Of a stretch of 39,374 nucleotides of DNA, positions 24,467-39,374 are shown piece by piece. Under the pieces are notes generated by a model. It searched no databases. It worked only from the letters and a program-made list of their open reading frames with translations, and was not told the DNA's origin. The position numbers and the translations under genes were made by a program. How positions within the stretch are numbered: position 1 is the stretch's first letter; the number at the start of each line of letters is the position of its first letter. Origin of the DNA: a virus; IMG/VR virus record IMGVR_UViG_3300005515_000023, positions 1 to 39,374 of that record, one strand, 5' to 3'.

Positions 24467-24480
24467 TCCTCCGTCCCGAA

Positions 24481-27476: not shown

Positions 27477-27544
27477 CCCCCCAGTCTATGGCTTCTCCTT
27501 GCCGGAGGCGAGGGTGTCGCGCGTTTCCCATAGCGCCTTGACTG

Positions 27545-27837: not shown

Positions 27838-28394
27838 CTACTTCCCCTCGCAGCGGCGGAAGCGGAACGGGCTGGGGAGTGCTCGTCGTTGATCGCGATC
27901 ACAGTCCGGTCGGGCTTGTTCGTGTAGAGCCAGAACTGCCAAGCCTCCCCTGCGCCTGAATAGATGCCGAGGTACCACGATCCCTTGTCCATCTGTTCGA
28001 GGTGTACCTTCGCTCCGCAGGCTACGACCTCGTCGATTGTCCCGTCGTCGTTCCGGCGGATTTCGACCTCCGTCTTTTCGGTCGCAATCGCCACCGCCTG
28101 CGCGAGCTTGGCTTGAAGTGCATCTGCCCTAGCGGCCTCCTCCCTGATCATGATGCCGCGTTGTTTGCAGACCTCGCGCTCGATCTCGATCTCCGCGTCC
28201 TTCGCCTCGAACGCTGGGCGGATGAGGGAGAGGATGCGCGCAGTGGCTTCAGGGATGCCGCGGGTCTTTCCGCTGTGTTCGGTCCACAGTTCCTCAGAGA
28301 GGATGAACGACAGGTCTTCCTCGCTCGGCATCCCAGGTGCGGCGGAGCATGATGCATTTTCGGCGTATTGCTCTGAGGGTGAGTTAGCGCTCAT
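27834..28394 (-). CDS. Hypothetical protein
   Basis: ATGA-coupled at both ends. GGGAGACAAGGA RBS. 186 aa with a central coiled coil. Confidence 0.6.
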   Translation of the reverse strand: MSANSPSEQYAENASCSAAPGMPSEEDLSFILSEELWTEHSGKTRGIPEATARILSLIRPAFEAKDAEIEIEREVCKQRGIMIREEAARADALQAKLAQAVAIATEKTEVEIRRNDDGTIDEVVACGAKVHLEQMDKGSWYLGIYSGAGEAWQFWLYTNKPDRTVIAINDEHSPARSASAAARGSR

Positions 28395-28750
28395 TCCTTG
28401 TCTCCCGCCGCTGAGAGCATGGCGCTCGGAGGAGCGGGCGCCAGAAAGAGCTTGTGCTCGCCAGGTAGCAAGCGACTGAGCCGGCTGTCGATCTCATTTA
28501 GAGATATGCAGCGCCGCCCGTCATGCATGTAGACGGTCGCACGAACGCTTGGTTCGGCTGCCGCCTCCTTCGGCTTGGCGGATTCGTAGGCCTCGATCGC
28601 GACGACAGCCAAGGCCTGAGCGCTCTCCCACTGGCGCTGCTGCCTAGCGAAGTCCTGGTTGCTAACCGGGCCTTCCATCGCTTCATAGAGCGCCTTTGCA
28701 ACGGTGCTCTTCGCCTTCTCATCGATCATTGCAAGACTCCTGGTCTGCAT
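28391..28750 (-). CDS. Hypothetical protein
   Basis: GC3-rich frame. An alternative start MIDEKAKS at 28729 would reduce the overlap with the upstream gene. Confidence 0.55.
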   Translation of the reverse strand: MQTRSLAMIDEKAKSTVAKALYEAMEGPVSNQDFARQQRQWESAQALAVVAIEAYESAKPKEAAAEPSVRATVYMHDGRRCISLNEIDSRLSRLLPGEHKLFLAPAPPSAMLSAAGDKE

Positions 28751-28946
28751 CGCGGGCCTCGTTGAGTGCGGCGCGGCATTCGGCGCACTGCTCGAAATCG
28801 AGCACGCCGTGTTCGCAAGGAGTTGTCATTCCGCGGACGAATGAGGCACGTTGCGCTTCGTCATGAGCTTTGCGCTGCTCAGGCGTCATTGCCTCATAGC
28901 GACGCACGGCTTCGCGAAAGAGATGACGGAGTTGAAGCTCGCTCAC
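28719..28946 (-). CDS. Small Cys/His-containing protein
   Basis: GTGA overlap with the upstream stop. TPCEHGVLDFEQCAECRAAL suggests a small metal-binding knuckle. Confidence 0.5.
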   Translation of the reverse strand: MSELQLRHLFREAVRRYEAMTPEQRKAHDEAQRASFVRGMTTPCEHGVLDFEQCAECRAALNEARDADQESCNDR

Positions 28947-29263
28947 GACCGGCCCTCCTTATCGCCTGTGGGGTGGGGATTTGAGGTGGCATCCGCTAGG
29001 TTCCGGCCAGAACTCTCAGGCGGGAGCGGAAGCGGCATCCAATGCGTTGGCGTCACCACCGAATAACGGTCATACAGCCCCTGCCATCTGGGCTCCCCGA
29101 TCGGCTCACCGCCCCATACCGTACGCGCCCAAATGCAGTTTGCGTACCGGTCGGCTTCGCCCGTAGCTTCACGGACAGCCCAAAGGTCGATGACCGTCCC
29201 ATCCTTCGGAGCCGTTTCGATCGGCTGCCAGGTAGGTGAGGACAGCTCGCGGATGCCCCTCAT
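28943..29263 (-). CDS. DUF551-like protein (second copy)
   Basis: WQPIETAPKDGTVIDLW... and TPTHWMPLPLPPES. Paralogue of 4891..5181. Confidence 0.7.
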   Translation of the reverse strand: MRGIRELSSPTWQPIETAPKDGTVIDLWAVREATGEADRYANCIWARTVWGGEPIGEPRWQGLYDRYSVVTPTHWMPLPLPPESSGRNLADATSNPHPTGDKEGRS

Positions 29264-30984
29264 AATCCCCCCTCCCCATGGCCGGGGGCGGGGTTGAGGG
29301 CGGCAAAGACGTGGTTGCGAAGCTCAAGCAAGGCCATGAGGCCTTCTGGCGTCTTTTCAGGCCAGCACTTGCAGCGCTCGTAAATCTCGCGAGCCTTCTC
29401 CATCCACTCGGCAGAAAACGCCTCCACCACCTCCCCAGTCGCGGGAGAGGACAGGGCGACGCGGGCTGCATCTTCGGCAGAGTGCAGCCACGACACCAAT
29501 CGGTTCAGATCGCCGTACAGCTCCCGCTTATGCCAAACCGGATCAGCGACCTTCTCGCCTGCCAGAAATGCCGACCTCGTCCACCCTTCCAGGATTTCGC
29601 GTTGCTCGCGCCATCCATCCGGCGAACCCAACGCCTCCCTTACCCCGCCCGCAGGCGAGGGGTTTGGCTTGTCGAGGGCTAGGTCTACCTGCCCTTGAGC
29701 ATAGCCAAGCCCGTAATGATGGCCGGGGCCGCCGCGTTCCTCGTCGATTGTCGCTACAACTGACATTATTTCTGCGAGGTAGACCTTCTGCTGCTCAGGA
29801 TCGACTGTCGGCCAGTAGGAGCCTCGTCGCAGCGACAGTCGTTGCGCGGCCTTGTAGACGGCGCGCTGAAGGAGAGATCCCACGCGCTCTGCTGCTTCGC
29901 TGCCCTCTTCGGCAAGCGGGATGTAGCCGTCCTCGCCGCACGCCACGACCATCCGCAGCAGGGTATCAACCTCCCCGACGCCGAGATCATTCGCCCCCCT
30001 GCGAAGCTGATATCTCGCGAGGCGGATGGCCTCTTTCATGCCACGCATACGCTCGGCAGACGAAAGGTCGACATCATTGCCCGCAGGCGAGGGAGAGGAC
30101 ACGGGCGATGAGGGGGTGGCGCCTGCGAGTACATCGATGCCCATTCGAAAAACGGTCGCGTCGAGCGCGCGCTTGTCCTTGTCAGCAATCTTGGCGCGCT
30201 GGCTGAATAGGCCGATCATCATGTCGCGCTCATGCTCTTGCAGCTTGGGCTCGTCCTCGCCCGGCAGCGAAGGGTCCTTGAGCAACTGGTCAGCCCGCCA
30301 CATCAAGGCCCTATGGGAAGCCGGGATATCGCCGTCCCCGGTCTCATGGCCATAGCGGTTCAGTGCCGCGAGCATGTCCGTCAGGACCGAGCGCCATGCC
30401 ACCGGCTCGGGTGCCCCATCCCCTTGCGTCGGGGCCGTGAGAGAGGCGAGACGGAGTATTTCTTGAGCGCTGGCCGTGCGCTCCGCGTCGTCGGCTTCCC
30501 CGGCCAGCAGGCTCTCGTCCCGCTCTTTCAGGAAGGCCGCCACCGCCTCCACGCTCGCGGTCTGGACGGGCGCGGGTGGGGTGGCCGCAAGGGCGGACCT
30601 GATGCGGGACTCGTAGTCGGCTTGGGCGGTGGCCATTGCCTCGTTTGGCGACTTGAACCCGATCTTGCCACCGAAGAGACTAGGCGGCTCGAAAGCCCAC
30701 GAGTTGTTTGATCGCATGTAGACCAGATAGCGACCGAAACTGCTTTCCGCGCGCCACGTTGGGCTATGGTTCAGTCCCTGCTCAACCCAATCCAGCTGCT
30801 TGACCACCACACCGCCCGCACCGGCCTGCGAGAGGGGTCGGCTGTTCCACAGTTCGACGGTGTCCGCGCACCCGGCGCAGTCATCGCACGCCGGCCCCTT
30901 GCGCTCGGTCGATACCCAGCCCTCGGGGTCGATGTTCGCGCTGCCGCAGAACGGGCAAGGCAAAAGCTTCGCGGCTTCATTCAT
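29260..30984 (-). CDS. Large multidomain protein with N-terminal Lar-family (restriction alleviation) zinc ribbon
   Basis: Start MNEAAKLLPCPFCGS (GGAGAAG RBS). CPFCGS...GPACDDCAGC...ELWNSRP matches the Lar-type zinc ribbon. Followed by the KQLDW...GRYLVY...AMATAQADYESRI module common in alphaproteobacterial prophages, then about 400 aa that I cannot assign. Confidence 0.65.
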   Translation of the reverse strand: MNEAAKLLPCPFCGSANIDPEGWVSTERKGPACDDCAGCADTVELWNSRPLSQAGAGGVVVKQLDWVEQGLNHSPTWRAESSFGRYLVYMRSNNSWAFEPPSLFGGKIGFKSPNEAMATAQADYESRIRSALAATPPAPVQTASVEAVAAFLKERDESLLAGEADDAERTASAQEILRLASLTAPTQGDGAPEPVAWRSVLTDMLAALNRYGHETGDGDIPASHRALMWRADQLLKDPSLPGEDEPKLQEHERDMMIGLFSQRAKIADKDKRALDATVFRMGIDVLAGATPSSPVSSPSPAGNDVDLSSAERMRGMKEAIRLARYQLRRGANDLGVGEVDTLLRMVVACGEDGYIPLAEEGSEAAERVGSLLQRAVYKAAQRLSLRRGSYWPTVDPEQQKVYLAEIMSVVATIDEERGGPGHHYGLGYAQGQVDLALDKPNPSPAGGVREALGSPDGWREQREILEGWTRSAFLAGEKVADPVWHKRELYGDLNRLVSWLHSAEDAARVALSSPATGEVVEAFSAEWMEKAREIYERCKCWPEKTPEGLMALLELRNHVFAALNPAPGHGEGGL

Positions 30985-31069
30985 CGTTCTTCTCCGTGCT
31001 GCGGGAGAGGGCTTGGGCCGCGCGCCATTCCGCGACCACATTCTCGGTGGGGGTGGTCTCCCGGCTCAT
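30977..31069 (-). CDS. Possible 30-aa micro-ORF
   Basis: ATGA overlap with the stop of 31066..31275, and its stop overlaps the Lar-gene start. MSRETTPTENVVAEWRAAQALSRSTEKNDE has better GC3 than the alternative N-terminal extension of the Lar ORF (track start 31041). Confidence 0.3.
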   Translation of the reverse strand: MSRETTPTENVVAEWRAAQALSRSTEKNDE

Positions 31070-31275
31070 CGTCCGGTCTCCTGCGGAGAGGGGGATTTTG
31101 GGTAGACCCGAACCGAATCCTTGTTCCATTTGACGCCGAAACGCTGGCCGTTCTCGAACTCGATCCCGGCAACGTTCCTGGACGGACGCCCGTCGCGGAG
31201 GCTCGCATGAGCCGCTCGGACCTGAAGGATGAGATCGCCACCCGCCTCCAGAATGATGCGCTTGATCTCGCCCAT
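31066..31275 (-). CDS. Hypothetical small protein
   Basis: GGAGGGG RBS upstream of ATG 31275. 69 aa. Confidence 0.55.
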   Translation of the reverse strand: MGEIKRIILEAGGDLILQVRAAHASLRDGRPSRNVAGIEFENGQRFGVKWNKDSVRVYPKSPSPQETGR

Positions 31276-31315
31276 CTACCCCTCCACCGAGGAAGAGCGG
31301 GCGATAACCGGAAGA

Positions 31316-31753
31316 TCAATCATCGTCGCTCTCCTTGGTCTGGAGAACGACACCTCCGTCAGCAATGCCGATGCCGACAAGTCGAAGGCCGGACGCAGCG
31401 CCGTAGCTGCTGCACCAAACCATCGTATCTCGATGCATAACGAAGTCGCCGCCCTTGTATCCCACCATCGTCGAGCCGTTGGCGGACTGCGCGGCCATCA
31501 GAAATTCGGCGACGGTCGAATTCGATCCACAGGGGTCGAACTCAATCTGCTCATAGTAGCCGCGGTAGCTCCTGAACTGCCCTGGCGCAGATCCTGAGGC
31601 GTCTACAGTAATCTGAAGTCCACCATCGAGGGACGCTAAGGCGTCGATGAGATTCCCGAGCGTCATTTGCCCGGCGGCAACAGCCTCCGACCGGATTTTC
31701 CCCCGCAGTTCGGGGAACAAGTCGTAGATCGATAAAACTCGCGGCTCACCCAT
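31316..31753 (-). CDS. Hypothetical protein (first gene on the far side of attP)
   Basis: Start MGEPRVLSIY at 31753 (GGAGGAGAG RBS), not the track start 31804. F(R)SYRGYY...GYKGGDF pattern recalls a widespread phage family of unknown function. Confidence 0.55.
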   Translation of the reverse strand: MGEPRVLSIYDLFPELRGKIRSEAVAAGQMTLGNLIDALASLDGGLQITVDASGSAPGQFRSYRGYYEQIEFDPCGSNSTVAEFLMAAQSANGSTMVGYKGGDFVMHRDTMVWCSSYGAASGLRLVGIGIADGGVVLQTKESDDD

Positions 31754-31872
31754 GTCGGCTCTCCTCCCGGTTCGGAGAGGAGGGGGCACGCCTCTCCATG
31801 CCACGGCCTTGTTCGACCATGGCGTGGTAGCCGGATGCCCAGGTGGCGCGGGGGGAGGGCGGATTATCCTCT

Positions 31873-32131
31873 CCGGGTATTTTCCCGGGTATTATCGAAG
31901 ATGGCTTTCCGATGGGACATTGAAAATCAATATGTTGGGACTTGAGTTCGGCGGTCTCCGTCTCCGCCACCATACTTTTCCGCATCGTTTGCTCCTGTCC
32001 CAAAAGGCTTGAAAAGAAGGGCTTCCGCGGCGCATAACCGTTACAGGACGGTTCAGCGGATACCGGTGCAGCCCGATGAGTATCGGGTATTTCGCCGGGT
32101 ATGGCAATGCATGAACCGGGTATTTCGCCGG
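31873..32131 (+). repeat. Candidate integrase arm-type sites: 5 direct copies of (C/T)CGGGTAT
   Basis: Copies at 31873, 31885, 32083, 32095 and 32116. CGGGTATTTCGCCGG is repeated exactly at 32084..32098 and 32117..32131. Confidence 0.55.
32009..32038 (+). promoter_or_regulatory. Candidate integrase promoter TTGAAA-N18-CATAAC
   Basis: TTGAAA at 32009..32014 and CATAAC at 32033..38. The same -10-like hexamer occurs at the candidate PRM. Confidence 0.3.
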
Positions 32132-32138
32132 AAATCGC

Positions 32139-33374
32139 ATGCTCACAGACACAAAAATCAGAGCCGCGAAGCCCAAGGAAAAGGGCTACAAGCTCACCGA
32201 TTCGGCCGGCCTGCATGTCTTTGTCAGCCCATCCGGCGGCAAACTCTGGCGCTACCGATACGAATTCCAGGGTAAGGAGAAGCTGCTCTCGCTTGGTCCA
32301 TACCCGGAAACTACCCTGCTTGATGCGCGCGCCGGGCGTGATGCCGCGCGGGCCATTCTGCGGGAGGGCCGTGACCCAGCTCTGGCAAAAAAGCAGAAGC
32401 GCCTCACCATCGCCAAGCAGACGACCGAGACCTTCAGGAAGGTCGCCGATGAATGGCAGGCAGCCAACCTCAAGCGCTGGTCCCCGGTCCATGCCGCTGA
32501 TGTGAAGCATCAGATCGAGCGCGACGTATACCCGGCTATCGGCGAATACCCGGTGCGGGACATTACCGTGCAGCAGGTCCTTCAGCTCTTGCGCGATATC
32601 GAGGCGAGGGGGGCGGTTGAGACCGCTCACCGAGCTCGTCAGCGCATCAGCTCGATTTTCACCTTCGCTATCGCTGCCGACAAGGCCAGCGCAAATCCTG
32701 CTCTCCTTGTGGGGGGCGCTCTCTCCGCCGTGGTGAAGGGCCGCCAGCCGGCGGTCACGGATCTCGACAAGGCCAAGAGGATTCTGGTCGATGTGGACGG
32801 GACGAACGGTCACATCGTTACGAAGCTCGCCATTCGCCTGCTGGCCATCACCGCAGTTCGGCCTGGTGTGATCGCCGGAGCGCCATGGTCCGAACTGCCG
32901 CCCGGGCAGACTATTTGGACGGTGCCGGCGAAGCGCATGAAGCTTCAGGTCGGCATGAAGAACGATGAGCGCCGTGATCATCTCGTTCCTCTGCCGAAGC
33001 AGGCGATTGAGCTGATCGAGTGCATTCGCACGATTACCGGTGACGGCCCGATGGTTTTCCCGAACCACCGCCACGCTCACAAGCCCATGAGCGAGAACGC
33101 CATGGCCTACATGCTGAACCGGGCGGGATATCATCATCGCCATGTTCCTCATGGCTGGCGCGCAACGTTTTCCACCATCATGAACGAGCGTTTCCCGGAC
33201 GATCGCGCCATCATTGATCTGATGCTCGCGCACACCCCGAAAGATGAGGTCGAGAGCGCTTATAACCGGGCAGCCTACCTCAAGCGCAGGACGGAACTTG
33301 CGCAGCTTTGGGCTGACCTCATCACCGATGGTCTGGCGGAGCCGGTCGCTCTCAAAACATTGCCGTTCCGATAG
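32139..33374 (+). CDS. int: Tyrosine integrase, P4/CP4-57 type (DUF4102 N-terminal domain)
   Basis: MLTDTKIRAAKPKEKGYKLTDSAGLHVFVSPSGGKLWRYRYEFQGKEKLLSLGPYP is the canonical DUF4102 arm-binding domain. C-terminal catalytic residues HGWRATF...LAHT...AY. Confidence 0.92.
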   Translation: MLTDTKIRAAKPKEKGYKLTDSAGLHVFVSPSGGKLWRYRYEFQGKEKLLSLGPYPETTLLDARAGRDAARAILREGRDPALAKKQKRLTIAKQTTETFRKVADEWQAANLKRWSPVHAADVKHQIERDVYPAIGEYPVRDITVQQVLQLLRDIEARGAVETAHRARQRISSIFTFAIAADKASANPALLVGGALSAVVKGRQPAVTDLDKAKRILVDVDGTNGHIVTKLAIRLLAITAVRPGVIAGAPWSELPPGQTIWTVPAKRMKLQVGMKNDERRDHLVPLPKQAIELIECIRTITGDGPMVFPNHRHAHKPMSENAMAYMLNRAGYHHRHVPHGWRATFSTIMNERFPDDRAIIDLMLAHTPKDEVESAYNRAAYLKRRTELAQLWADLITDGLAEPVALKTLPFR

Positions 33375-33376
33375 CA

Positions 33377-33586
33377 TCACGAGGCCTTCGCGAAGCCGGT
33401 TTCGTTCAGATTTGCGATCCACTGGTTGATGGCGGATTCGCGCCAGGCAATGGCGTTCCCCCCGAGAGAGACAGGGCGCGGGAAAGTCCGCTCTGTCACG
33501 CGGCGGTAGATCGTTGTGCGGCTGAGCCCAGTCTTGCTCTTGACCTCAGGCAGCCGAAGCAGGCGATCGTTCGGAGCTTGGTTCAT
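33377..33586 (-). CDS. xis: AlpA-family excisionase / transcriptional regulator
   Basis: LLRLPEVKSKTGLSRTTIYRRVTERTFPRPVSLGGNAIAWRESAINQWI is a textbook AlpA/Xis HTH. Convergent with int, with 2 nt between the stops. Confidence 0.85.
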   Translation of the reverse strand: MNQAPNDRLLRLPEVKSKTGLSRTTIYRRVTERTFPRPVSLGGNAIAWRESAINQWIANLNETGFAKAS

Positions 33587-33990
33587 CGCGACACCTCACC
33601 TGGTAGCCGACGCGGGGGAAGGGGATTGGACAACGGGGAAGACGCGCGCCGCTGCGGCGGCTGCTTGCGAAAGCGAGGGCCTGACAGCTTCGACCCGATC
33701 CCGCGATGCTTCGCCTCACGACGTTTGGCTTCCGCAATGACGGCCATGTCCTGAGCGGTCTTGCCGTCAGGTCCTCGGTGGCAGCAGTCCCGGCCAAGCA
33801 TCTTGCCATCGTCAGCCGTCAGCTTGCGGCTCTTGTCGAGGATAAGGGCCTCGGCAATGGTGTGATCGAACTCGATCGCCTTGCCAGTGACGTTGAGACC
33901 GCAGCCTTCGCAGAAGATGTTGCCCTTCGCGTCGGTAGCGCGACGGACCATCTCGGCTTTTTGAGCATTGCTGAACTCGCGGCGCTTCAT
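33583..33990 (-). CDS. HNH endonuclease
   Basis: CEGCG...EFDHTIAEAL...CCH pattern (CxxC, DH, downstream H). ATGA-coupled to xis. Confidence 0.7.
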   Translation of the reverse strand: MKRREFSNAQKAEMVRRATDAKGNIFCEGCGLNVTGKAIEFDHTIAEALILDKSRKLTADDGKMLGRDCCHRGPDGKTAQDMAVIAEAKRREAKHRGIGSKLSGPRFRKQPPQRRASSPLSNPLPPRRLPGEVSR

Positions 33991-34175
33991 CAGATCCCCC
34001 GAGCTTTAAGCGCGGCATCAAGAAGAGCACGGGCGGCTTCTACCTCTGACCGGCAGCCCTCCTGATATCCGTACTCTCTGATGCGCTGGACGAGTTCGCC
34101 GGGCAGCTCGTAGACCCGGCGCTCGGCCGGAACCGGAGGCGGTCGGACGTACTTGCGAGGAGTGTAGCCCTTCAT
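33990..34175 (-). CDS. Small protein, possibly ribbon-helix-helix
   Basis: Start MKGYTPRKY at 34175 (ATGA overlap). RVYELPGELVQRIREYGYQEG..SEVEAARALLDAAL resembles CopG/Arc-type RHH. Confidence 0.45.
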   Translation of the reverse strand: MKGYTPRKYVRPPPVPAERRVYELPGELVQRIREYGYQEGCRSEVEAARALLDAALKARGI

Positions 34176-34645
34176 CTCCGCCCCCTCTGCCAAGCGTAGT
34201 ACTCGGCATCGAGGGCGCGCCACTTGAACCCGCTATCCTGCGGAGATCGGTCGCTTGGCCCCTTTCCGATATCGGAACGGCTCGTGACGCCACACAGCCG
34301 ACGCACGGCAATCGCAACTCGATCCTGATTTTGATCAAGCTCGGAGATCCGCCCTGTCTCGGCCAAGAACCGTTCAAACTCCGGCTCCTGGCATCGCATT
34401 GCCGCCTGCTGCGCGAGCGGCAGATTGGTGAAGGGCGTGCGTTCCTTGACTTGCTCGGGTTTACCCCGCGCATTTTCGACAAGCCGCGCCAGCGCGATAT
34501 GCCCGCCGTGGCCCGGCATGCCGAGCGTATCGAACGCGTGCTGAGCCGCCTCCTCAGCTACTTCAATGACGAGCTGATAGACCTTGCGAGACGGGACGTG
34601 CTTGATCGTCGTGAACTCGCCAGAGATTGCAGCGGGGGCGCTCAT
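34172..34645 (-). CDS. Hypothetical protein coupled to ERF (recombination accessory?)
   Basis: ATGA-coupled on both sides. 157 aa. No domain recognised. Confidence 0.6.
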   Translation of the reverse strand: MSAPAAISGEFTTIKHVPSRKVYQLVIEVAEEAAQHAFDTLGMPGHGGHIALARLVENARGKPEQVKERTPFTNLPLAQQAAMRCQEPEFERFLAETGRISELDQNQDRVAIAVRRLCGVTSRSDIGKGPSDRSPQDSGFKWRALDAEYYAWQRGRR

Positions 34646-35316
34646 GCTGCTGCCTTCTCAGGAAGGCCGGAAGCGAGGCCGGCGACGTGCTGTTTGATGT
34701 CTTCGAACGCGTCTGGCGGCAGCATCGACTTGGCCTTGGGGATCTGGCCAGACCACCAAGACCGCAAGTCCTCTTGGTTGCTGGCTTTCGCCGCAGCTAT
34801 GCGAAGCGCCTTGTCGAGCAGGGCCGCGTCGCCTGAAAGAGGCGCTGCCGACGCAGGGAAGTTGCGCGAACCCGCGCCGGCAGCGATCCGGCCTTGCTGG
34901 GGCGCGGAACTGGAATTGCGATCGATAGCGGTCTCCGCATCGTCATCGACGGGAGGCAGGCCAAGCGAAGCCATCAGCGCATAGCGCTGCGCATAGGTGA
35001 GCGCAGAGCCTGCGCCCTGCGGATCATGCTTCCCGAGAGGGATTTCCATATCACTGGAAATCCACTGCCCCGAGGCGGCATGCATCAGCAGGGTGGTCAT
35101 TCCGATATTGCCGGCGTTGATCTTGCCGGGAGCCTGCATCCACGAAATGCCGACGCGCTGGAGAACCGGGCGCGCCTCGTCCACCACAGCCTCAAGCGAG
35201 GCATAGCGGTTCTTGAAGTGCGGGTTCTGGCTGTCCTTGACGACGCCAGTGGCCTCAGCCTGGAATGCGAGCAGGGCCTTGGCGATCTCGGTGATCTCTG
35301 TGCTCTTCTCAATCAT
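34642..35316 (-). CDS. erf: ERF-family single-strand annealing recombinase
   Basis: IAKALLAFQAE...KDSQNPHFKNRYASLEAVVDEARPVLQRVGI...GAGSALTYAQRYALMASLGL matches the ERF (P22 Erf) family pattern. Confidence 0.85.
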   Translation of the reverse strand: MIEKSTEITEIAKALLAFQAEATGVVKDSQNPHFKNRYASLEAVVDEARPVLQRVGISWMQAPGKINAGNIGMTTLLMHAASGQWISSDMEIPLGKHDPQGAGSALTYAQRYALMASLGLPPVDDDAETAIDRNSSSAPQQGRIAAGAGSRNFPASAAPLSGDAALLDKALRIAAAKASNQEDLRSWWSGQIPKAKSMLPPDAFEDIKQHVAGLASGLPEKAAA

Positions 35317-35533
35317 CGCTAGCCTCTTTCGGCATCCTACGGGGCGTCCAATCGGGGCAATCGCCGTCCAGATTGATGCGCTTGCATTCGTGATAGGGCG
35401 GCGACGGCCGCCAGTCGGGATCTACAAAGCCGCCGAACGGCTCTGCCGGGTTCGCCATGCACCGCCAGCGGTAGGGGGCGTGCTGCCGCGTATCGGGGTG
35501 AACCAGATCGCAGTCTCGGCAGAGGGTGGTCAT
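35309..35533 (-). CDS. Small Cys-rich protein
   Basis: Start MTTLCRDCDLVH at 35533 (ATGA overlap). Contains CxxC ... C ... C ... C. Confidence 0.5.
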   Translation of the reverse strand: MTTLCRDCDLVHPDTRQHAPYRWRCMANPAEPFGGFVDPDWRPSPPYHECKRINLDGDCPDWTPRRMPKEASDD

Positions 35534-35772
35534 TCGTCGCGAGCCTTTCGGTCGCGCTCCGATCGAGCCCAAGCCATGAACTCTTCGAAGTTGTCAGGCT
35601 CAGCTTGAACCTTTTGGCGAAAGTCATCATCGAGGCGCTCCCAAAAAAGCTCCTCCAGGAATTGATCGGAATCGTCGCCTTCGAAATCGTCCGCAGAGAT
35701 CGAGAGCTCCTGCGGCCTCGATCTCCCGACATATCCATCAGCAGCCTGCCATTTGACGCTGAACTTGCTCAC
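35530..35772 (-). CDS. Small strongly acidic protein
   Basis: 80 aa with 22 D/E by my count, e.g. DDFEGDDSDQFLEELFWERLDDDF. GC3-rich frame. Confidence 0.55.
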   Translation of the reverse strand: MSKFSVKWQAADGYVGRSRPQELSISADDFEGDDSDQFLEELFWERLDDDFRQKVQAEPDNFEEFMAWARSERDRKARDE

Positions 35773-35777
35773 CGCCC

Positions 35778-36029
35778 TTACTCCGCCGCTTCCAACAGGA
35801 AAGGCTTGGCGATGGGAGCCGCGGCAGCAGAGCGAAGCGCCTTCGCCGTGATCTCCAGCTCGGCAGCGAGCTCGTTGATCTTCTTCCGGTCGGCTGGAAC
35901 GAGATCGACCTGACGAGCAGCGCAGATCAGGTAGTTGGCTGCGCTCGATGCGGCCCAGATCGGCTGAGATGCCATGTCGAGCGCGGTCTTGAGAGACCCG
36001 GCCCTGTAATCGCGCATATAGTCGCTCAT
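35778..36029 (-). CDS. Hypothetical protein
   Basis: Start MSDYMRDY at 36029 (ATGA overlap), not the track start 36203, whose N-terminus is P/R/S-rich junk. Confidence 0.5.
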   Translation of the reverse strand: MSDYMRDYRAGSLKTALDMASQPIWAASSAANYLICAARQVDLVPADRKKINELAAELEITAKALRSAAAAPIAKPFLLEAAE

Positions 36030-36238
36030 GCGATCCTCCTGCGCTCCAGTCGGAGCAGTTCGACGGTGATTTGTTGAAGCTGGGCGTAGAGGTGACGCAC
36101 CTTGCGGTGATTGCCCTTTTCGACGCGGATGCGGTGGATCAGTTCGAACCGCTTGGCTTTGAGCTGATTGGCTCGCCGCTTCGTCGGGCGGGTGGCGATC
36201 CACTCGATGATCGCGCGGATGATGCGGCGGTCGATCAT
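36026..36238 (-). CDS. Small basic helical protein
   Basis: ATG 36238 is preceded by GGAG. R/K-rich (RPTKRRANQLKAKRFELIHRIRVEKGNHRKVRHL). Confidence 0.5.
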   Translation of the reverse strand: MIDRRIIRAIIEWIATRPTKRRANQLKAKRFELIHRIRVEKGNHRKVRHLYAQLQQITVELLRLERRRIA

Positions 36239-36250
36239 CACACGCTCCAA

Positions 36251-36388
36251 TCAGAAGAGAGAGGCCACGCCGTAGCCGTAGATGCCCACCAGAAAGGCGG
36301 CGTAGACAGCGAGGGCGATGAGGGTGTTACGCGCGAGAGGAGCCGCGGAGACAGGCTCAGGCGCTGGGATATAGACGCGGCGGATCAC
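36251..36388 (-). CDS. Possible 45-aa single-TM micro-protein
   Basis: GTG start overlapping the upstream stop (GTGA). ...NTLIALAVYAAFLVGIYGYGVASLF. Below the track cutoff. Confidence 0.3.
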   Translation of the reverse strand: MIRRVYIPAPEPVSAAPLARNTLIALAVYAAFLVGIYGYGVASLF

Positions 36389-36576
36389 TGGCCTGCCTCC
36401 CGAAGCTTCTGCTCAGGCGAGCGACGATCGGCCAGCCAATCGCTCGGCATCGGCGGATCTACCTTCTCGCGGAGAGGGGTGACGCGGGGATAGGCGATCA
36501 GGCTGGCGACCCAAGTGAGGGCGCAGATGACACTGACCGCGAAGCTGATGAGGACAGCGCGCTCGTAGGGGCTCAT
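36385..36576 (-). CDS. Small membrane protein (1 TM)
   Basis: Start MSPYERAV at 36576 (GGAGGCG RBS, 1 nt after the upstream stop). TM LISFAVSVICALTWVASLIA. Confidence 0.5.
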   Translation of the reverse strand: MSPYERAVLISFAVSVICALTWVASLIAYPRVTPLREKVDPPMPSDWLADRRSPEQKLREAGQ

Positions 36577-36577
36577 G

Positions 36578-36844
36578 TCACTCGCCTCCGGCTTTGGAGC
36601 GTTCGGCGAGTAGGGCATCCGCTAGGGCATAAGCCTCTCGCGCGGCGCAGTTGTTTCTATCCTCGAACCCCGGCCCGACCATTCCGCACTTTGGGTGAGC
36701 CATGAGCCCGGCCAGAGCCTGCCCCGCGAACCAGTCGCGCAGAGACATGCCTTGGGCATATTCAGTGCCGACGTAGTGATTGCCGCCGTCGTATCTGCGC
36801 GTTCCATAAGGGAACGCTGGACCGCCATTTGTGATATCGGCCAT
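36578..36844 (-). CDS. Hypothetical phage protein (GGPAFP...GMSLRDWFAGQAL family)
   Basis: This N-terminal motif pair recurs in many phage early-region proteins of unknown function, as I recall. Confidence 0.6.
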   Translation of the reverse strand: MADITNGGPAFPYGTRRYDGGNHYVGTEYAQGMSLRDWFAGQALAGLMAHPKCGMVGPGFEDRNNCAAREAYALADALLAERSKAGGE

Positions 36845-36848
36845 CGAC

Positions 36849-37181
36849 CTACTCCGCAGCTGACAGGAACTGCACGCCCCACTCAGCCCGATCGTCCTCG
36901 CGGCTTTCGTCGCGGGCGTTCAGGGCGTCGATGTAGGCTTGGCGAACGAGAGAGCGATGCTTGGCGCCGCGCGGCCGAGGAGCGGTGTCGTCGTCCACCC
37001 ACTCCTGAACGAGAGCGAAGGCGGCCTTGGACACGCCAGAGCCGCAGCTCTCGGCATCGATCAGACGGAAGCTGAAGCCCAGATCATCGGTTGAGAGCTT
37101 GAGGAGCCAGCTGCCAGACAGGGCAAAGGAGCCGAAATCAAGCTCAATCCCGAAGTCGTGGCTGAAGTCGAAGGCGGCCAT
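36849..37181 (-). CDS. Hypothetical acidic protein
   Basis: 110 aa with GC3-rich frame. Second gene of the leftward operon. Confidence 0.55.
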   Translation of the reverse strand: MAAFDFSHDFGIELDFGSFALSGSWLLKLSTDDLGFSFRLIDAESCGSGVSKAAFALVQEWVDDDTAPRPRGAKHRSLVRQAYIDALNARDESREDDRAEWGVQFLSAAE

Positions 37182-37183
37182 GG

Positions 37184-37492
37184 TCAGCGAGCCTCCGAGA
37201 GGGAGGCGCGACGCAGGGCATCCTTGAACGCAAGCTTGGTGCTGGCGATCTCCTGTTCACTCCCCGTCGCATCGACAGCAATCGTCGCCAGACGGAGAGC
37301 TTCCTCGACAAGGGGGAGCCGGCCAATACGATTGGCAATCGCCTTGTCGGCACACAAGGCAATGTCAGGGCCATCGCGCATCACCTCCAGCGCGGAAATG
37401 GCCCCCGTCCTGACGTAGAAGGCCGGCTCGTTGTCGAACGATGAGCCGATCTCTCCGACAATCCATTTTTCGGCAGGCTTCGTCTCGCTCAT
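37184..37492 (-). CDS. Hypothetical protein, first gene of the leftward (PL) operon
   Basis: GGAGAGCGAG RBS upstream of ATG 37492, about 40 nt downstream of the PL -10. Not Arg-rich, so not obviously N-like. Confidence 0.6.
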   Translation of the reverse strand: MSETKPAEKWIVGEIGSSFDNEPAFYVRTGAISALEVMRDGPDIALCADKAIANRIGRLPLVEEALRLATIAVDATGSEQEIASTKLAFKDALRRASLSEAR

Positions 37493-37536
37493 CTCGCTCT
37501 CCGGTCCAGAGCCTTAGCTCGGTGGGTGTGAGAGCG

Positions 37537-37565
37537 GTTATAACTTTAGTGTTTTAGAGCGTCAA
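37537..37565 (-). promoter_or_regulatory. Candidate PL promoter TTGACG-N17-TATAAC with operator-like elements
   Basis: On the minus strand: TTGACG (37565..37560), 17-nt spacer, TATAAC (37542..37537). The -10 lies in the palindrome GTTATAAC. The spacer holds the 10-mer AACTTTAGTG (37542..37551), which also occurs in OR. Confidence 0.55.
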
Positions 37566-37588
37566 CAACTTTTGTTATCGCAACGAAT

Positions 37589-37626
37589 AAAAAAATGCCC
37601 GCGCTTATGGCGGGCGGCGTTTTCTT
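37589..37626 (-). terminator. Intrinsic terminator after cI (potentially bidirectional)
   Basis: GCCCGC-gcttatg-GCGGGC (37597..37615), flanked by AAAAAAA on one side and GGCGTTTTCTT on the other. On the minus strand the stem is followed by ATTTTTTT. Confidence 0.75.
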
Positions 37627-37627
37627 G

Positions 37628-38284
37628 TTATGTGCCAAACAGTTCGTTGATCGTGAACACCCTATGGATGCTCTTTATCCGGGCTGTCTCGATCTCGATA
37701 TCGCAGTCCGGATTGAACTGGTGGAGCTTCACGACTGTCGCGCCCCTTCTTACCAGACGCTTAATGAACCCTTTCCCGGGTACCCCATCTTCCTCAGGGT
37801 GCAGCTCGACTACGACGTAGTCCCCAATGGCCGCTGGCCTCAGTGCAGAGACGTAGAGCATATCGTTCGGGTCGAAACGGGGCGACATGCTGTCGCTCGT
37901 CACGTAGACCGCGTAGACGCCATTAGTCTTAGCTAGCCCCGGAGGGCGCCGGACGTACTCAGATACAGATCCATTAAACGAAAAGTCTGCGTCGCTTCCT
38001 CCCACAGCTACCCCCTTAACGGGAATGTCCAGCGGCATTGACTGCCTCTGAAGCGCCAGGTCGGTGGAGGCTTCCTCTGCGGGTGCTTCCGGCTGGCTTC
38101 CCACCGGGATATTGAGCAGGCGCATGATCTCGGGCAACCACTTTGATTTGGTCGTCTCGCCGCTTTCAATCTTGGCGATTGCAGCCTGAGATATACCTAC
38201 CCCGCGCGCGAGGTCGGATTGCGACATCCCTCGCGCTTCGCGTTCAGATCTGATTCGGTCACCTAACGGCATATCGCCGTCCAT
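37628..38284 (-). CDS. cI: cI-type repressor (XRE-family HTH + S24 LexA-like peptidase domain)
   Basis: GMSQSDLARGVGISQAAIAKIESGETT (HTH_3). C-terminal VTSDSMSPRF (Ser) and GFIKRLV (Lys) give the S24 autoprotease dyad. Start set at MDGDMPLG (38284); the track start 38413 would overlap cro. Confidence 0.88.
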   Translation of the reverse strand: MDGDMPLGDRIRSEREARGMSQSDLARGVGISQAAIAKIESGETTKSKWLPEIMRLLNIPVGSQPEAPAEEASTDLALQRQSMPLDIPVKGVAVGGSDADFSFNGSVSEYVRRPPGLAKTNGVYAVYVTSDSMSPRFDPNDMLYVSALRPAAIGDYVVVELHPEEDGVPGKGFIKRLVRRGATVVKLHQFNPDCDIEIETARIKSIHRVFTINELFGT

Positions 38285-38363
38285 AACCGGAGTTATGGCG
38301 CTTGTCGCGAAAACTTTAGTGGTTGCAGTTCCATAACTTCTGTTGTATTTCGTTGTTATGGAC
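38279..38363. promoter_or_regulatory. Divergent control region (OR) with four CCATAAC/GTTATGG half-sites
   Basis: CCATAAC at 38281 and 38331; GTTATGG at 38292 and 38355. The outermost copies extend to a 9-bp inverted repeat, GTCCATAAC (38279..87) / GTTATGGAC (38355..63), that contains the ATGs of cI and cro. The 10-mer AACTTTAGTG at 38312..21 is shared with OL. Confidence 0.6.
38323..38351 (+). promoter_or_regulatory. Candidate PR promoter TTGCAG-N17-TATTTC
   Basis: Hexamers at 38323..28 and 38346..51. The cro ATG is only 6 nt after the -10 and no SD is visible, which suggests a leaderless transcript. Confidence 0.35.
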
Positions 38364-38591
38364 ACTCGCTCACTCCTGATTTCGGCCATCCAAGATGCCG
38401 GTTCCGAGGCCAAGCTTGCCGCGAAAGCGGGGTGCTCTCAGGTCGCCATCAACAAGGCCAAAAAAGCCGGGCGCGTATCGCCCGCCATGGCAGTCATGCT
38501 GGAGCGCGCTACCAGCCACGGCCGTCACGTCTGGCGCCCTGACCTTTGGCCTGTCGCAGTCCCTTCCGACGAAATGCGGAGGGCTGGGTGA
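38358..38591 (+). CDS. cro: Cro-like / YdaS-type small DNA-binding protein
   Basis: LLISAIQDAGSEAKLAAKAGCSQVAINKAKKAGRVSPAMAVMLERAT is the Cro/YdaS-type HTH. Divergent from cI. An alternative TTG start is at 38343. Confidence 0.75.
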   Translation: MDTRSLLISAIQDAGSEAKLAAKAGCSQVAINKAKKAGRVSPAMAVMLERATSHGRHVWRPDLWPVAVPSDEMRRAG

Positions 38592-39157
38592 TGACCGTCG
38601 TGGCGTCTGGGTACGAACGTCAGGTCAATGACCTGTACGAAACTCCTGAGTGGGTGACGCAGGCATTGATCCGCGCGATCGGGTTCAACCCCGATCGAGA
38701 CGTTGTCTGGGAACCGTCCGCTGGCAACCACAAAATCGCGGATGTGCTCAAGGCTGCTGGGATGTCTGTCCGCACCAGCGATATCGCGACTTACAGCCGA
38801 GAACATGACGCTACCTTCGATTTCCTTGGGAACGAGAGCATCAACTTCGGAGCGCGGCATCTTGTCACCAATCCACCCTACGGCAAGGGGAACCGCGACG
38901 CCGTCAAGTTCGCTCATCGTGCCCTCTGGCGGTGCAATGGCATCGTCGCGCTGTTGCTCACCGCCAAGTTCGATTTCGGCAAGACCAGAGCCGATCTGTT
39001 CCGCGACAACCCTCGTTTCCTTGCCAAGATCGCATTGCTCGATCGTATCCAGTGGTTTGAAGGCGAGCATGGGTCGACCGAGGACCACGCGTGGTTCGTG
39101 TGGGGCGCCGCCGATAGGCGACATGAGCCCCGGCTACTCTGGGAAGCGCGCAAGTAA
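38591..39157 (+). CDS. Orphan N6-adenine DNA methyltransferase (minimal, 188 aa)
   Basis: Start MTVVASG (TGATG overlap with the cro stop). SAM motif I-like VWEPSAGNHKIA and catalytic motif IV LVTNPPYG. No adjacent restriction gene. Confidence 0.75.
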   Translation: MTVVASGYERQVNDLYETPEWVTQALIRAIGFNPDRDVVWEPSAGNHKIADVLKAAGMSVRTSDIATYSREHDATFDFLGNESINFGARHLVTNPPYGKGNRDAVKFAHRALWRCNGIVALLLTAKFDFGKTRADLFRDNPRFLAKIALLDRIQWFEGEHGSTEDHAWFVWGAADRRHEPRLLWEARK

Positions 39158-39174
39158 TGCCGCGCCTTTCCCTC

Positions 39175-39366
39175 TCACCCCCTTTGGCCGCCCGGACGGC
39201 CCGTCAGTGCCCTGTCTCCTCCCTTCGGGTGCACGACAAAGCGACGCGCTGGGATAGCCACGTCGGCTCCGGGCCTTCCACCCGCGAGGCTTGTTCCTCC
39301 CTTGCCGTCTCGCGGCATCCTGCCGGGGCTCGGCTCATCGCCGGCCCCGGCCTTTCTCTTGTCCAT
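39175..39366 (-). CDS. Doubtful minus-strand ORF; in the circular molecule extends to an ATG at 84..86 (81 aa)
   Basis: Across the junction it reads MVRLDVLVRQVLADAREKMDKRKAGAG..., preceded by GGGGGGAG. The body is G/P/R-rich with many AGA/AGG/GGA codons atypical for this genome. Confidence 0.2.
   Translation of the reverse strand: MDKRKAGAGDEPSPGRMPRDGKGGTSLAGGRPGADVAIPARRFVVHPKGGDRALTGRPGGQRG
39186..39360 (+). ncRNA. Candidate structured RNA / sRNA with anti-SD (CCUCCC) loop motifs
   Basis: Four consecutive hairpins. 39186..39201. 39207..39234 (loop UGUCUCCUCCCUUC). 39282..39315 (stem CCGCGAG/CUCGCGG, loop with UUCCUCCCUU). 39322..39351 (GCCGGGGC/GCCCCGGC) followed by CUUUCUCUU. Confidence 0.3.
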
Positions 39367-39374
39367 CTTCTCGC
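39335..39374. repeat. Direct terminal repeat, copy 2 (identical to 1..40)
   Basis: Exact 40/40 match to positions 1..40. Confidence 0.95.

What the first reader, a model, noticed from the sequence alone, without database searches (positions are those of the whole stretch)
39158..39374. Structured C/U-rich gap after the methylase: candidate sRNA with CCUCCC anti-Shine-Dalgarno loops
Between the methylase stop (39157) and the next + strand gene (ATG 134 after the junction) lie about 310 nt with no credible + strand ORF. The + strand is strikingly pyrimidine-rich. It folds by eye into four successive hairpins:
- 39186..39201.
- 39207..39234, with a C/U-rich loop containing CUCCUCCC.
- 39282..39315, with a C/U-rich loop containing UUCCUCCCUU.
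- 39322..39351, followed by a U-rich CUUUCUCUU tail.

A further hairpin (99..120, TTCGCG/CGCGAA) abuts the next RBS. Hairpins displaying CCUCC-type anti-SD seeds followed by a terminator-like stem is the layout of Rhizobiales trans-acting sRNAs (AbcR CUCCCA loops, and the ar14/cuckoo-type C/U-rich loop motifs, as I recall them). A phage-borne copy in the early operon could reprogram host translation. Alternatively it could act as a tR1-like terminator or nut-like region.
Basis: partly seen in the sequence, partly recalled or inferred. Interest (0 to 1): 0.7.

Follow-up and report, generated by a model that had tools for sequence, protein, structure and literature searches.

The report
Phage early-operon hairpin-terminator RNA module
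The "gap" after the methylase is a conserved, folded stretch of the phage's early transcript: hairpins that display ribosome-binding-site-like decoy loops, then a transcription stop signal, overlapped on the opposite strand by a small gene of which only the first ~20 codons are kept by selection; it may be a new phage-borne regulatory RNA, but no transcript data exist.

Summary
The window is a circular 39,334-bp temperate-phage genome, and the gap is its most pyrimidine-rich 310 nt. The four hairpins and the RBS hairpin exist, and their stems covary in relatives.

The core is a + strand unit:
- hairpin A, 39282-39315, with a UUCCUCCCUU loop;
- a 12-bp G+C hairpin B, 39322-39351, followed by CUUUCUCUU.

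A structural descriptor found this unit in 22 loci of related alphaproteobacterial phages. All 22 are in the sense orientation of the early operon. Three sit between two + strand genes with no antisense ORF.

The unit is not a member of ar14, AbcR or sX13. Only sub-threshold Rfam hits occur, and only in relatives.

The minus-strand 81-aa ORF is partly real:
- Codons 1-20 are under purifying selection (pN/pS about 0.4) and are predicted to form a helix.
- The tail over the hairpins is not selected as protein. pN/pS is at least 1.1 in 5 of 6 pairs, and the GGGAGGA motif is read in different frames.

Best reading (confidence about 0.45): a tR1-like intra-operon terminator whose 3'-end RNA carries anti-SD-like loops. 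This combines DicF-style biogenesis with cuckoo-style seeds. Trans-action, targets and transcript ends are untested.

Verdict: a new variant of a known kind, of moderate interest.

The parts
38591..39157 (+). DNA methyltransferase gene, the last gene of the cro-methylase early segment; its stop codon is followed directly by the element.
   Evidence: Matches phrog_799 DNA methyltransferase at E 1.9e-42. The repressor 37628..38413(-) and the cro/YdaS-like gene 38343..38591(+) lie upstream.
39158..39185 (+). Conserved leader TGCCGCGCCTTTCCCTCTCACCCCCTTT. It contains the stop codon of the minus ORF (39175-39177). Homology to L103, L104 and L105 starts exactly at the upstream stop codon, although the upstream genes differ.
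   Evidence: Alignment A3; sequences.
39186..39201 (+). hp1, GGCCG-CCCGGA-CGGCC, a 5-bp G+C hairpin.
   Evidence: The stem is 100% paired with 2 covarying pairs (GGCCG/CGGCC, GGCGC/GCGCC; GGCCA/TGGCC in L102). The compensatory changes turn GRPGGQ into GAPVRQ in the minus ORF.
39203..39237 (+). hp2, an interrupted 11-bp stem. Its loop at 39213-39226, UGUCUCCUCCCUUC, resembles an anti-SD sequence.
   Evidence: The stem is 98% paired with 3 pairs showing double changes. The loop is kept in L083 (GUGUCCCUCCCUG) while the stem changes.
39232..39259 (.). Invariant block CACGACAAAGCGACGCGCTGGGATAGCC; function unknown.
   Evidence: All 28 bases are identical in WIN, L103, L104, L105 and L083. In L083 the block lies outside the minus ORF, which an insertion truncates, so it is not conserved as protein.
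39282..39315 (+).
   Evidence: In the consensus fold. Ten stem variants occur across 17 loci with 69 of 70 cells paired, and the loop motif [CU]CCUCCC(C) is kept. Found by the descriptor scan.
39322..39351 (+).
   Evidence: In the MFE and the consensus fold. Eleven stem variants with 77 of 77 cells paired. Not called by the simple scan tool, because of the bulge and loop limits.
39352..39364 (+). U/C-rich tail CUUUCUCUUGUCC (equals positions 18-30 of the window start).
   Evidence: A T/C-rich tail lies on the + strand side only, in all 22 units.
15..86 (-). First 24 codons of the minus-strand small ORF (ATG 86..84): MVRLDVLVRQVLADAREKMDKRKA. This is the only part under protein-level selection.
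   Evidence: Entropy by codon position is 21.3/20.2/30.1. pN/pS is 0.06-0.90 with a median about 0.4 over 15 pairs. AlphaFold predicts a helix at residues 4-24 with pLDDT about 85. 56 protein clusters were found.
39175..39334 (-). Tail of the 81-codon minus ORF (continues from position 1); antisense to hp1-hp4; Gly/Arg/Pro-rich; not selected as protein.
   Evidence: Substitutions by codon position are 12:12:10. pN/pS is 1.1-2.65 in 5 of 6 pairs. GGGAGGA is read in different frames. pLDDT is 40-57. Openness is largely compositional: alternative frame +1 is open for at least 45 codons in 13 of 19 loci.
35..69 (.). hp5, an inverted repeat TCTCGCGAG..CTCACGAGA inside the N-terminal coding part, with loop CGCCAAGACC.
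   Evidence: 6 of 8 pairs show double changes among 5 sequences. In WIN the + strand C-A mismatch becomes G.U on the minus strand (read directly). The strand is undecided.
90..98 (-). Shine-Dalgarno sequence of the minus ORF (GGGGGGAGA on the minus strand).
   Evidence: Read directly from the sequence. An equivalent C-rich run lies next to CAT in all loci.
97..123 (+). hp6, CCUUCGCG..CGCGAAAGG, a hairpin whose 3' arm holds the ORF134 Shine-Dalgarno sequence.
   Evidence: In the MFE. Other loci have different stems at the same place, each including the SD: GTGACG/CGTCAC, CTCCTGTCA/TGACAGGAG, CTCCGTTGCGA/TCGCAAACGGAG.
134..559 (+). ORF134, the first gene after the terminator. It belongs to no known family. 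In relatives it is followed by a Bac_DnaA_C protein, that is, the replication module.
   Evidence: 74 protein clusters; synteny. In the window it is followed by an HTH ORF, RusA, DnaB and an O-like initiator.

Best explanation
**What it is.** The gap is the untranslated 3' end of the immediate-early rightward transcript (cro, then methylase) of a lambdoid alphaproteobacterial temperate phage.

**How it most likely works.**
- On the + strand RNA it folds into hp1 and then two hairpins (hp2, hairpin A). Their large loops expose UCCUCCCUU, which resembles the 16S anti-Shine-Dalgarno sequence.
- A 12-bp G+C hairpin with a U/C tail follows (hairpin B).
- Hairpin A plus hairpin B is a conserved unit.
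- The unit most likely stops or attenuates transcription before the replication genes, in the way tR1 does in lambda.
- It thereby leaves a stable structured 3'-end RNA, perhaps trimmed at its 5' side, as the prophage sRNA DicF is made.
- The C-rich loops of that RNA can pair with ribosome-binding sites, in the manner of cuckoo/ar14/sX13-type seeds.

**The opposite strand.** A small ORF starts at 86..84, just right of the terminator, and is read back through the unit. Only its N-terminal helix of about 20-24 residues is a selected protein feature.

**Shown:** the structure, the covariation, loop conservation, polarity, position, and the split between the coding N-terminus and the unconstrained tail.

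**Inferred:** termination, accumulation of the RNA, trans-pairing, and the targets.
For: **Structure**
- Covariation statistics on the 5-sequence alignment.
- Hairpins A and B have 10 and 11 stem variants with 69/70 and 77/77 cells paired. Re-dealing the arms gives 41/70 and 51.5/77.
- The loop motif TCCTCCC(C) is kept in 15 of 17 loci.

**Polarity and independence from the antisense ORF**
- The descriptor scan gave 22 hits, all in the sense orientation of the early operon and none on the other strand in 640 kb.
- There were no false positives in 586 kb of unrelated viral DNA.
- In L059, L062 and L028 the unit sits between two + strand genes with no antisense ORF.
- In L001 an HNH gene separates the unit from the peptide start.
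- G.U pairs fall 5 on the + strand against 1 on the minus strand in hairpins A and B.
- The z-score is more negative on the + strand in 12 of 16 loci.

**Not protein-driven**
- The tail shows pN/pS of at least 1.1, no 3-periodicity and shifting frames.

**Position**
- The unit lies directly after cro in L103 and L104, and before ORF134/DnaA_C/DnaB elsewhere.

**Design resemblance**
- Sub-threshold ar14 and sX13 hits fall exactly on the unit, on the right strand.
- The cuckoo family is defined by variable stems with CCUCCUCCC loops, co-transcribed with an upstream gene and followed by a terminator-like hairpin (PMC4615179).
- DicF is made by early Rho-independent termination inside a lambdoid prophage operon (PMC9438474).
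Against: - No transcript data exist.
- The U-tract is short and interrupted (5 U in 9), and the generic terminator scan did not call hairpin B.
- No Rfam family is reached.
- No conserved target was found. The hp2 loop's best site in the genome is the small ORF's RBS (-30.5 kcal/mol), but this does not hold in other loci.
- Hairpins are strand-symmetric. The WIN minus strand has the better z-score (-3.45 against -1.9). Some helices carry G.U pairs only on the minus strand (hp5 in WIN, hp2 in L104, and the block helix).
- My hairpin registers were chosen on the + strand, which biases the G.U count.
- The antisense ORF is open in all 19 loci and has been called as a gene in 56 clusters.
Confidence: 0.45

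Rival explanations
1. The element acts only in cis, as an antitermination site plus terminator. Hairpin A with its conserved loop would be a nut/boxB-like or put-like recognition element. It would load a factor, or modify RNA polymerase directly, so that early transcription reads through hairpin B into the replication genes. No trans-acting RNA would be involved.
For: The position matches lambda nutR-tR1: after cro, before the replication and delayed-early genes. There is a hairpin with an invariant loop and free-varying stem, 1-6 nt upstream of the terminator, in all loci. The downstream replication genes have no recognisable promoter of their own.
Against: No boxA-like sequence lies in the gap. 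No N-like or Q-like protein was recognised among 28 early proteins scanned, although N proteins are hard to detect. The loops are 16-26 nt, unlike the boxB pentaloop. There is no covariation between loop A and the terminator's 5' arm (matched -10.7 against mismatched -10.8 kcal/mol).
Confidence: 0.2
2. The minus-strand small ORF (81 aa, family of 60-120 aa) is the functional element. The pyrimidine richness is the mirror of its Gly/Arg/Glu/Lys codons, and the hairpins are mRNA structure or incidental.
For: It has an ATG with a strong SD. The start position is conserved 49-62 nt from the neighbouring start in 18 of 18 loci. The N-terminal codons are under purifying selection. 56 clusters have been called by gene finders. 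The ORF is always open and usually ends next to the upstream gene. The minus strand folds well.
Against: The tail has pN/pS of at least 1.1 and no periodicity. Compensatory stem changes cause radical residue changes. The conserved GGGAGGA is read in 2-3 frames, and L002 and L085 differ by compensating frameshifts. The L083 insertion truncates the ORF, yet the downstream DNA stays conserved. The unit exists without any antisense ORF in L059, L062 and L028, and lies 650 nt away from the peptide in L001. Openness is largely explained by 7-15% T. The tail is predicted to be disordered.
Confidence: 0.2
3. The element works at the DNA level, as a replication origin, a single-strand initiation signal or a protein-binding array next to the replication module, with the hairpins forming in single-stranded DNA.
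For: It is adjacent to ORF134, a DnaA_C-like HTH protein, DnaB and an O-like initiator. An invariant 28-bp block has no assigned role.
Against: The stems vary freely while the loops are conserved, which is the opposite of protein-bound palindromes. There are no iterons and no A+T-rich segment (read from the sequence). The U/C tail has strict polarity. The unit also occurs upstream of non-replication genes.
Confidence: 0.05

Closest known systems
Cuckoo RNA family / ar14 (NfeR1, CcsR1-4/RSs0680a-d) of Rhizobiales and Rhodobacterales
   Same: Both have hairpins of 24-50 nt with highly variable stems and a conserved C-rich anti-SD-like loop. The cuckoo loop is CCUCCUCCC. Here it is UCUCCUCCC and UUCCUCCC, with exact CCUCCUCCC in L062. 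[quoted passage not shown] Both occur in an alphaproteobacterial setting.
   Different: The element scores below Rfam gathering: no hit in the window, and 21.7 against 58.8 bits in L062. It is phage-borne and lies inside an early operon. It is overlapped by an antisense ORF. No expression data exist.
DicF of the Qin/Kim lambdoid prophage
   Same: DicF is an sRNA embedded in the early operon next to the immunity region of a lambdoid prophage. It is produced by early Rho-independent termination inside the operon plus 5' processing, and it pairs with ribosome-binding sites (PMC9438474).
   Different: There is no sequence or structure similarity (no Rfam hit). The host clade differs. DicF has a single defined seed, not 16S-like C-rich loops.
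Lambda nutR-tR1 region
   Same: Both form a non-coding, structured, C-rich segment between cro and the next early genes that controls passage of pR transcription.
   Different: tR1 is Rho-dependent and nutR has boxA and boxB, which are used by the N protein. Here there is an intrinsic-type hairpin, no boxA and no recognisable N.
sX13 of Xanthomonadaceae
   Same: sX13 has several stem-loops whose C-rich loops are its noted feature (PMC3771888 title and abstract; PMC4615179 lists it as a cuckoo-like motif carrier). A sub-threshold hit falls on the unit in L097.
   Different: The hit scores 21.3 bits against a gathering score of 50. The phylum-level lineage is unrelated, and sX13 is a stand-alone gene.

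Membership tests
Rfam ar14 (RF02344) | A covariance-model score at or above gathering (58.8 bits). | tested here: not met
   The window has no hit at gathering or at E<=10 for 38900-39374. The best hit in relatives is L062 at 21.7 bits, E 6.7.
Cuckoo family (thermodynamic-matcher definition, PMC4615179) | Hairpins of 24-50 nt, helix of at least 6 bp, loop of 9-27 nt. | tested here: met
   hp2 is 35 nt with a 14-nt loop. Hairpin A is 34 nt with a 7-9 bp stem and a 16-20 nt loop.
Cuckoo family (thermodynamic-matcher definition, PMC4615179) | Two or more motif-bearing hairpins joined by at most 10 unpaired bases. | tested here: not met
   hp2 ends at 39237 and hairpin A starts at 39282. Most related loci have a single motif hairpin followed by the terminator.
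Cuckoo family (thermodynamic-matcher definition, PMC4615179) | Loop motif CCUCCUCCC or an allowed variant. | tested here: inconclusive
   The window has UCUCCUCCC (8 of 9) and GUUCCUCCC (7 of 9). L062 has the exact motif. The list of allowed variants (the paper's Fig. 3C) is not held as text.
AbcR / other Rfam alphaproteobacterial sRNAs | A covariance-model match. | tested here: not met
   No such family appears among hits up to E 10 in the window end or in 10 related loci.
Rfam sX13 (RF02232) | A score at or above gathering (50 bits). | tested here: not met
   L097 2267-2381(+) scores 21.3 bits, E 8.4. There is no hit in the window.
Intrinsic (Rho-independent) terminator | A G+C-rich stem-loop immediately followed by a U-tract on the transcribed strand. 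| tested here: inconclusive
   The stem is 8+4 bp and strongly G+C-rich, and it is conserved with covariation. The tail CUUUCUCUU has 5 U in the first 8 nt, interrupted by C. The generic scan did not call it. Relatives have UUUUUCUCC or CUUUUCAUU.
Intrinsic (Rho-independent) terminator | Transcripts end there. | not testable with these tools
   This needs Term-seq, 3' RACE or in-vitro transcription.
Lambda-type nut site | A boxA consensus plus a boxB hairpin, and an N-like protein. | tested here: not met
   There is no boxA (CGCTCTTTA, up to 1 mismatch) in the gap. No antiterminator family was found among the scanned early proteins.
Trans-acting base-pairing sRNA (generic) | A discrete stable transcript and conserved complementarity to targets. 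| tested here: inconclusive
   The transcript cannot be tested. Within-phage target complementarity is strong in the window but not conserved. Host targets could not be searched.
Protein-coding gene (minus-strand 81-aa ORF) | Purifying selection on codons along the ORF. | tested here: inconclusive
   Met for codons 1-20, with pN/pS of 0.06-0.90 and excess entropy at codon position 3. Not met for codons 25-81, with pN/pS of 1.1-2.65 and substitutions at 12:12:10.

The most novel reading that the evidence does not exclude
Temperate phages of Alphaproteobacteria may carry a family of early-operon 3'-end RNAs not yet described. Their loops would mimic the 16S anti-Shine-Dalgarno tail and mask ribosome-binding sites of host or phage mRNAs early in infection. 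The RNA would be paired with an antisense small ORF, so that rightward (lytic) and leftward transcription through the same 200 nt form a sense/antisense switch between the immunity and replication modules.
Probability: 0.2. Interest if true: 0.8.

Novelty: new variant of a known kind. Interest (0 to 1): 0.55.

Why it matters
Anti-SD-loop sRNAs (cuckoo/ar14/CcsR, sX13) are known as chromosomal stress and symbiosis regulators. Phage-borne relatives by design have not been described in the sources I could search.

If the unit is expressed as proposed, three things would follow:
- It would be a second example, after DicF, of an sRNA made by premature termination inside a lambdoid early operon, in a different bacterial class.
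- It would give a handle on how these largely uncultured alphaproteobacterial phages gate replication-gene expression.
- It would add a candidate family to RNA databases.

The locus is also a clean case of a gene-finder ORF whose tail is shaped by RNA structure rather than by protein selection. That ORF is annotated as 'hypothetical protein' in 56 clusters.

Tried and rejected
- **Rfam.** Searches at gathering and at E<=10 gave nothing significant.
- **Sequence searches for relatives.** Neither the gap, the last 9.4 kb nor ORF134 matched GenBank phages, and ORF134 did not match PLSDB plasmids. Two conserved 19-22-mers had no exact match in IMG/VR.
- **Pattern scan.** A gapped primary-sequence pattern in IMG/VR gave 67 loci. 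Only the contig already known passed the structural descriptor, so the rest are chance matches.
- **Covariance model.** MAFFT would not keep my structural alignment (A4, A5), so I used my own descriptor scan instead.
- **Promoters.** A sigma-70-type scan found none on either strand around the gap.
- **Small-ORF RBS as conserved target.** The idea that the loops target the small ORF's RBS ranks first in the window. For hairpin A it ranks 17 to 369 in the 12 other loci tested, although the hp2 loop still ranks 3rd in L083. I rejected it as a general rule.
- **Antiterminator pairing.** Pairing of loop A with the terminator's 5' arm shows no covariation.
- **Antitermination features.** No boxA and no N/Q-like antiterminator were found.
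- **+ strand ORF.** The 121-codon ORF 39157..188 as a real gene is rejected, because substitutions show no periodicity in any frame.
- **ORF openness.** Openness as proof of a full-length minus-strand protein is weakened, because an alternative frame is open in 13 of 19 loci.
- **Family search for the small ORF.** Pfam and PHROGs gave nothing.
- **Strand assignment.** Folding energy and G.U counts gave mixed signals. Only the polarity of the U/C tail and the ORF-free loci decide for the + strand.
Full report
**Setting.** The first 40 bases of the window repeat its last 40, so it is a circular contig of 39,334 bp. The gene order around the finding is that of a lambdoid temperate phage:
- an S24/HTH CI-like repressor at 37628..38413 (-);
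- a Cro/YdaS-like gene at 38343..38591 (+);
- a DNA methyltransferase at 38591..39157 (+);
- the gap;
- ORF134 at 134..559 (+, no known family);
- an HTH ORF, RusA, a DnaB-like helicase and an O-like replication initiator.

Neither the gap, the last 9.4 kb nor ORF134 has a counterpart in GenBank phages, and ORF134 has none in PLSDB plasmids. Relatives exist only in metagenomes, in a Sphingopyxis MAG and in a Bosea genome.

**The observation.** The gap is 62% pyrimidine. The most pyrimidine-rich 310-nt window of the genome starts at 39134 and overlaps it almost entirely. hp1, hp2, hp4, a fifth hairpin (35-69) and the RBS hairpin (97-123) appear in the single-sequence fold. hp3 appears in the consensus fold of five homologous gaps. 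On that alignment:
- 90.5% of cells pair, against 81.0% after shuffling (0 of 500 shuffles reach it);
- 18 pairs carry compensatory double changes, against 8.3 (0 of 500);
- sliding the partners drops pairing to 35-46%.

Gap regions of 16 related loci all fold better than dinucleotide shuffles.

One correction is needed. A + strand ORF of 121 codons does cross the gap, and its ATG overlaps the methylase stop. Substitutions among the closest relatives fall 12:12:10 over the three phases, which excludes coding constraint in any frame on either strand between hp1 and hp4.

**The conserved core.** In all loci with an ORF134 homolog the order on the + strand is the same:
- the stop of a variable upstream gene (methylase, GapR-like, ParB-like, or cro itself);
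- a small G+C hairpin;
- a hairpin with a 7-9 bp stem and a 16-26 nt loop containing [CU]CCUCCC(C);
- 1-6 nt of linker;
- a 9-12 bp G+C hairpin with a loop near CUCAACA;
- a U/C-rich tail;
- about 70 nt that encode, in antisense, the N-terminus of a small ORF;
- CAT, then a C-rich run;
- a hairpin that contains the Shine-Dalgarno sequence of the next gene.

In a structural alignment, hairpin A has 10 distinct stems with 69 of 70 cells paired. Hairpin B has 11 distinct stems with 77 of 77 paired. Re-dealing the arms among variants gives 41/70 and 51.5/77.

I wrote a descriptor for the A+B unit and scanned both strands of 640 kb of fetched loci. It gave 22 hits, every one in the sense orientation of the early operon. 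It gave no false positive in a further 586 kb of unrelated viral DNA.

The four extra hits are informative:
- In L059, L062 and L028 the unit lies between two + strand genes. In L059 and L062 it starts just after the upstream stop codon. None of the three has an antisense ORF.
- L042 has the unit with a distant version of the antisense ORF.
- In L001, one of the ORF134 loci, an HNH endonuclease gene separates the unit from the antisense peptide by 650 nt.

The unit is therefore an independent, polar, + strand element.

**The minus-strand ORF.** An ATG at 86..84, preceded by GGGGGGAG, opens 81 codons. An equivalent ORF of 70-114 codons starts 49-62 nt from the neighbouring start codon in all 18 loci. 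A profile search finds 56 protein clusters of 60-120 residues, all unnamed. No Pfam or PHROG family matches.

The N-terminus is a real coding feature:
- Entropy by codon position is 21.3/20.2/30.1.
- pN/pS for codons 1-20 is 0.06-0.90, with a median near 0.4.
- AlphaFold predicts one helix, residues 4-24, at pLDDT about 85.

The remaining 55-60 codons are not:
- pN/pS is 1.1-2.65 in five of six comparable pairs.
- The compensatory hp1 changes turn GRPGGQ into GAPVRQ.
- The conserved GGGAGGA is read as GGG-GGA-GGA, G-GGG-AGG-A or GAG-GGG-GAG in different loci, and L002 and L085 differ by two compensating frameshifts.
- An insertion truncates the ORF in L083 while the DNA beyond it stays 28/28 identical.
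- The model is disordered there.

The ORF's length is largely explained by composition. T is 7-15% on that strand, and one alternative frame stays open for at least 45 codons in 13 of 19 loci.

**Which strand, and what for.** Folding energy and G.U counts give mixed votes. The decision for the + strand rests on three points: the one-sided U/C tail, the strict sense orientation, and the loci without an antisense ORF.

The unit sits where lambda has nutR-tR1. In L103 and L104 it directly follows a 50-residue cro-like gene. No own promoter is detectable, and in some loci there is no room for one.

I therefore read it as the 3' end of the immediate-early transcript. It would be an intra-operon terminator or attenuator that also generates a structured RNA with exposed anti-SD-like loops. 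The biogenesis model is DicF, which is made by early Rho-independent termination inside a lambdoid prophage operon plus 5' processing (PMC9438474). The seed model is the cuckoo/ar14 family. That family has variable stems and CCUCCUCCC loops, is co-transcribed with an upstream gene, and is followed by a terminator-like hairpin (PMC4615179).

**Membership.**
- The window has no Rfam hit even at E<=10.
- In relatives, the only hits that coincide with the unit are ar14 at 21.7 bits (gathering 58.8) and sX13 at 21.3 bits (gathering 50). These show a resemblance in design, not homology.
- The cuckoo rule of at most 10 nt between motif hairpins fails, since hp2 and hairpin A are 44 nt apart and most relatives have one motif hairpin.
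- For the nut alternative, there is no boxA in the gap and no recognisable N/Q-type protein.
- A loop-to-terminator-arm antiterminator pairing shows no covariation.

**Targets.** In the window, the hp2 loop's best non-self site in the whole genome is the ribosome-binding site of the antisense small ORF: 14 contiguous pairs, -30.5 kcal/mol. This does not hold for hairpin A or in most other loci, so it is a local lead and not a rule. Host targets could not be examined.

**Verdict.** The structures, their conservation and their polarity are shown. Termination, RNA accumulation and trans-action are inferred.

My estimates are:
- 0.45 for the terminator plus 3'-end anti-SD RNA reading;
- 0.2 for a purely cis antitermination site;
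- 0.2 for the small ORF as the only functional element;
- 0.05 for a DNA-level element.

The element is a new variant of a known kind, of moderate interest.

Noticed in passing
window 1..40 = 39335..39374: A 40-nt terminal repeat shows that the window is a complete circular 39,334-bp contig (assembly overlap). Features at the end of the window continue at position 41.
   Followed up: yes
window 38484..38468 (-): A good intrinsic-terminator-like site lies on the minus strand (CGGGCG-ATACG-CGCCCG followed by GCTTTTTTGG). It sits inside the cro-like gene in antisense, about 50 nt upstream of the repressor start. It would stop leftward transcripts, such as those from the small ORF, before they reach the repressor gene.
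   Followed up: no
L001 2143..2766 (+): A 207-aa ORF, which I judged HNH/AP2-like by eye and did not scan against any family library, is inserted exactly between the hairpin-terminator unit (2045-2110) and the antisense peptide start (2830). It looks like a homing-endonuclease insertion at the module boundary.
   Followed up: partly
L083 about 2690-2790; L106 about 20-65: An insertion of about 100 nt in the L083 gap shares a hairpin-forming element of about 40 nt with the flank of L106: CGCG(C/T)CTGACCGTCG(C/T)GCGGGGAGAAAGACGGTCGC. It may be a small mobile repeat.
   Followed up: no
L002 about 1367-1450; L085, L087, L095-L098 at the equivalent place: Small hydrophobic + strand ORFs of 25-33 residues (for example MPFCGYFLAALLALALSVFAGFATVTP) start at an ATG that overlaps the upstream stop codon (TGATG or TAATG). 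They lie under the tail of the antisense ORF. The window has the TAATG overlap but no hydrophobic peptide.
   Followed up: partly
window 134..559 (+) and homologs (P0001-P0074): ORF134 belongs to an uncharacterised family of 74 clusters with no Pfam or PHROG match. In relatives it is almost always followed by a Bac_DnaA_C-domain protein, so it is probably part of the replication or early regulatory module.
   Followed up: partly
window 39232..39259: The 28-bp block CACGACAAAGCGACGCGCTGGGATAGCC is invariant in five loci whose flanks differ. It lies outside any ORF in L083, and no role could be assigned. It contains a weak DnaA-box-like CTATCCC on the minus strand.
   Followed up: partly
window 88..101 vs 39211..39228 vs 39293..39306: Three + strand copies of YGTYTCCYCCCTTS are present: the hp2 loop, the hairpin A loop, and the complement of the small ORF's Shine-Dalgarno region. 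This repeat explains why the hp2 loop's best pairing site in the genome is that ribosome-binding site.
   Followed up: partly
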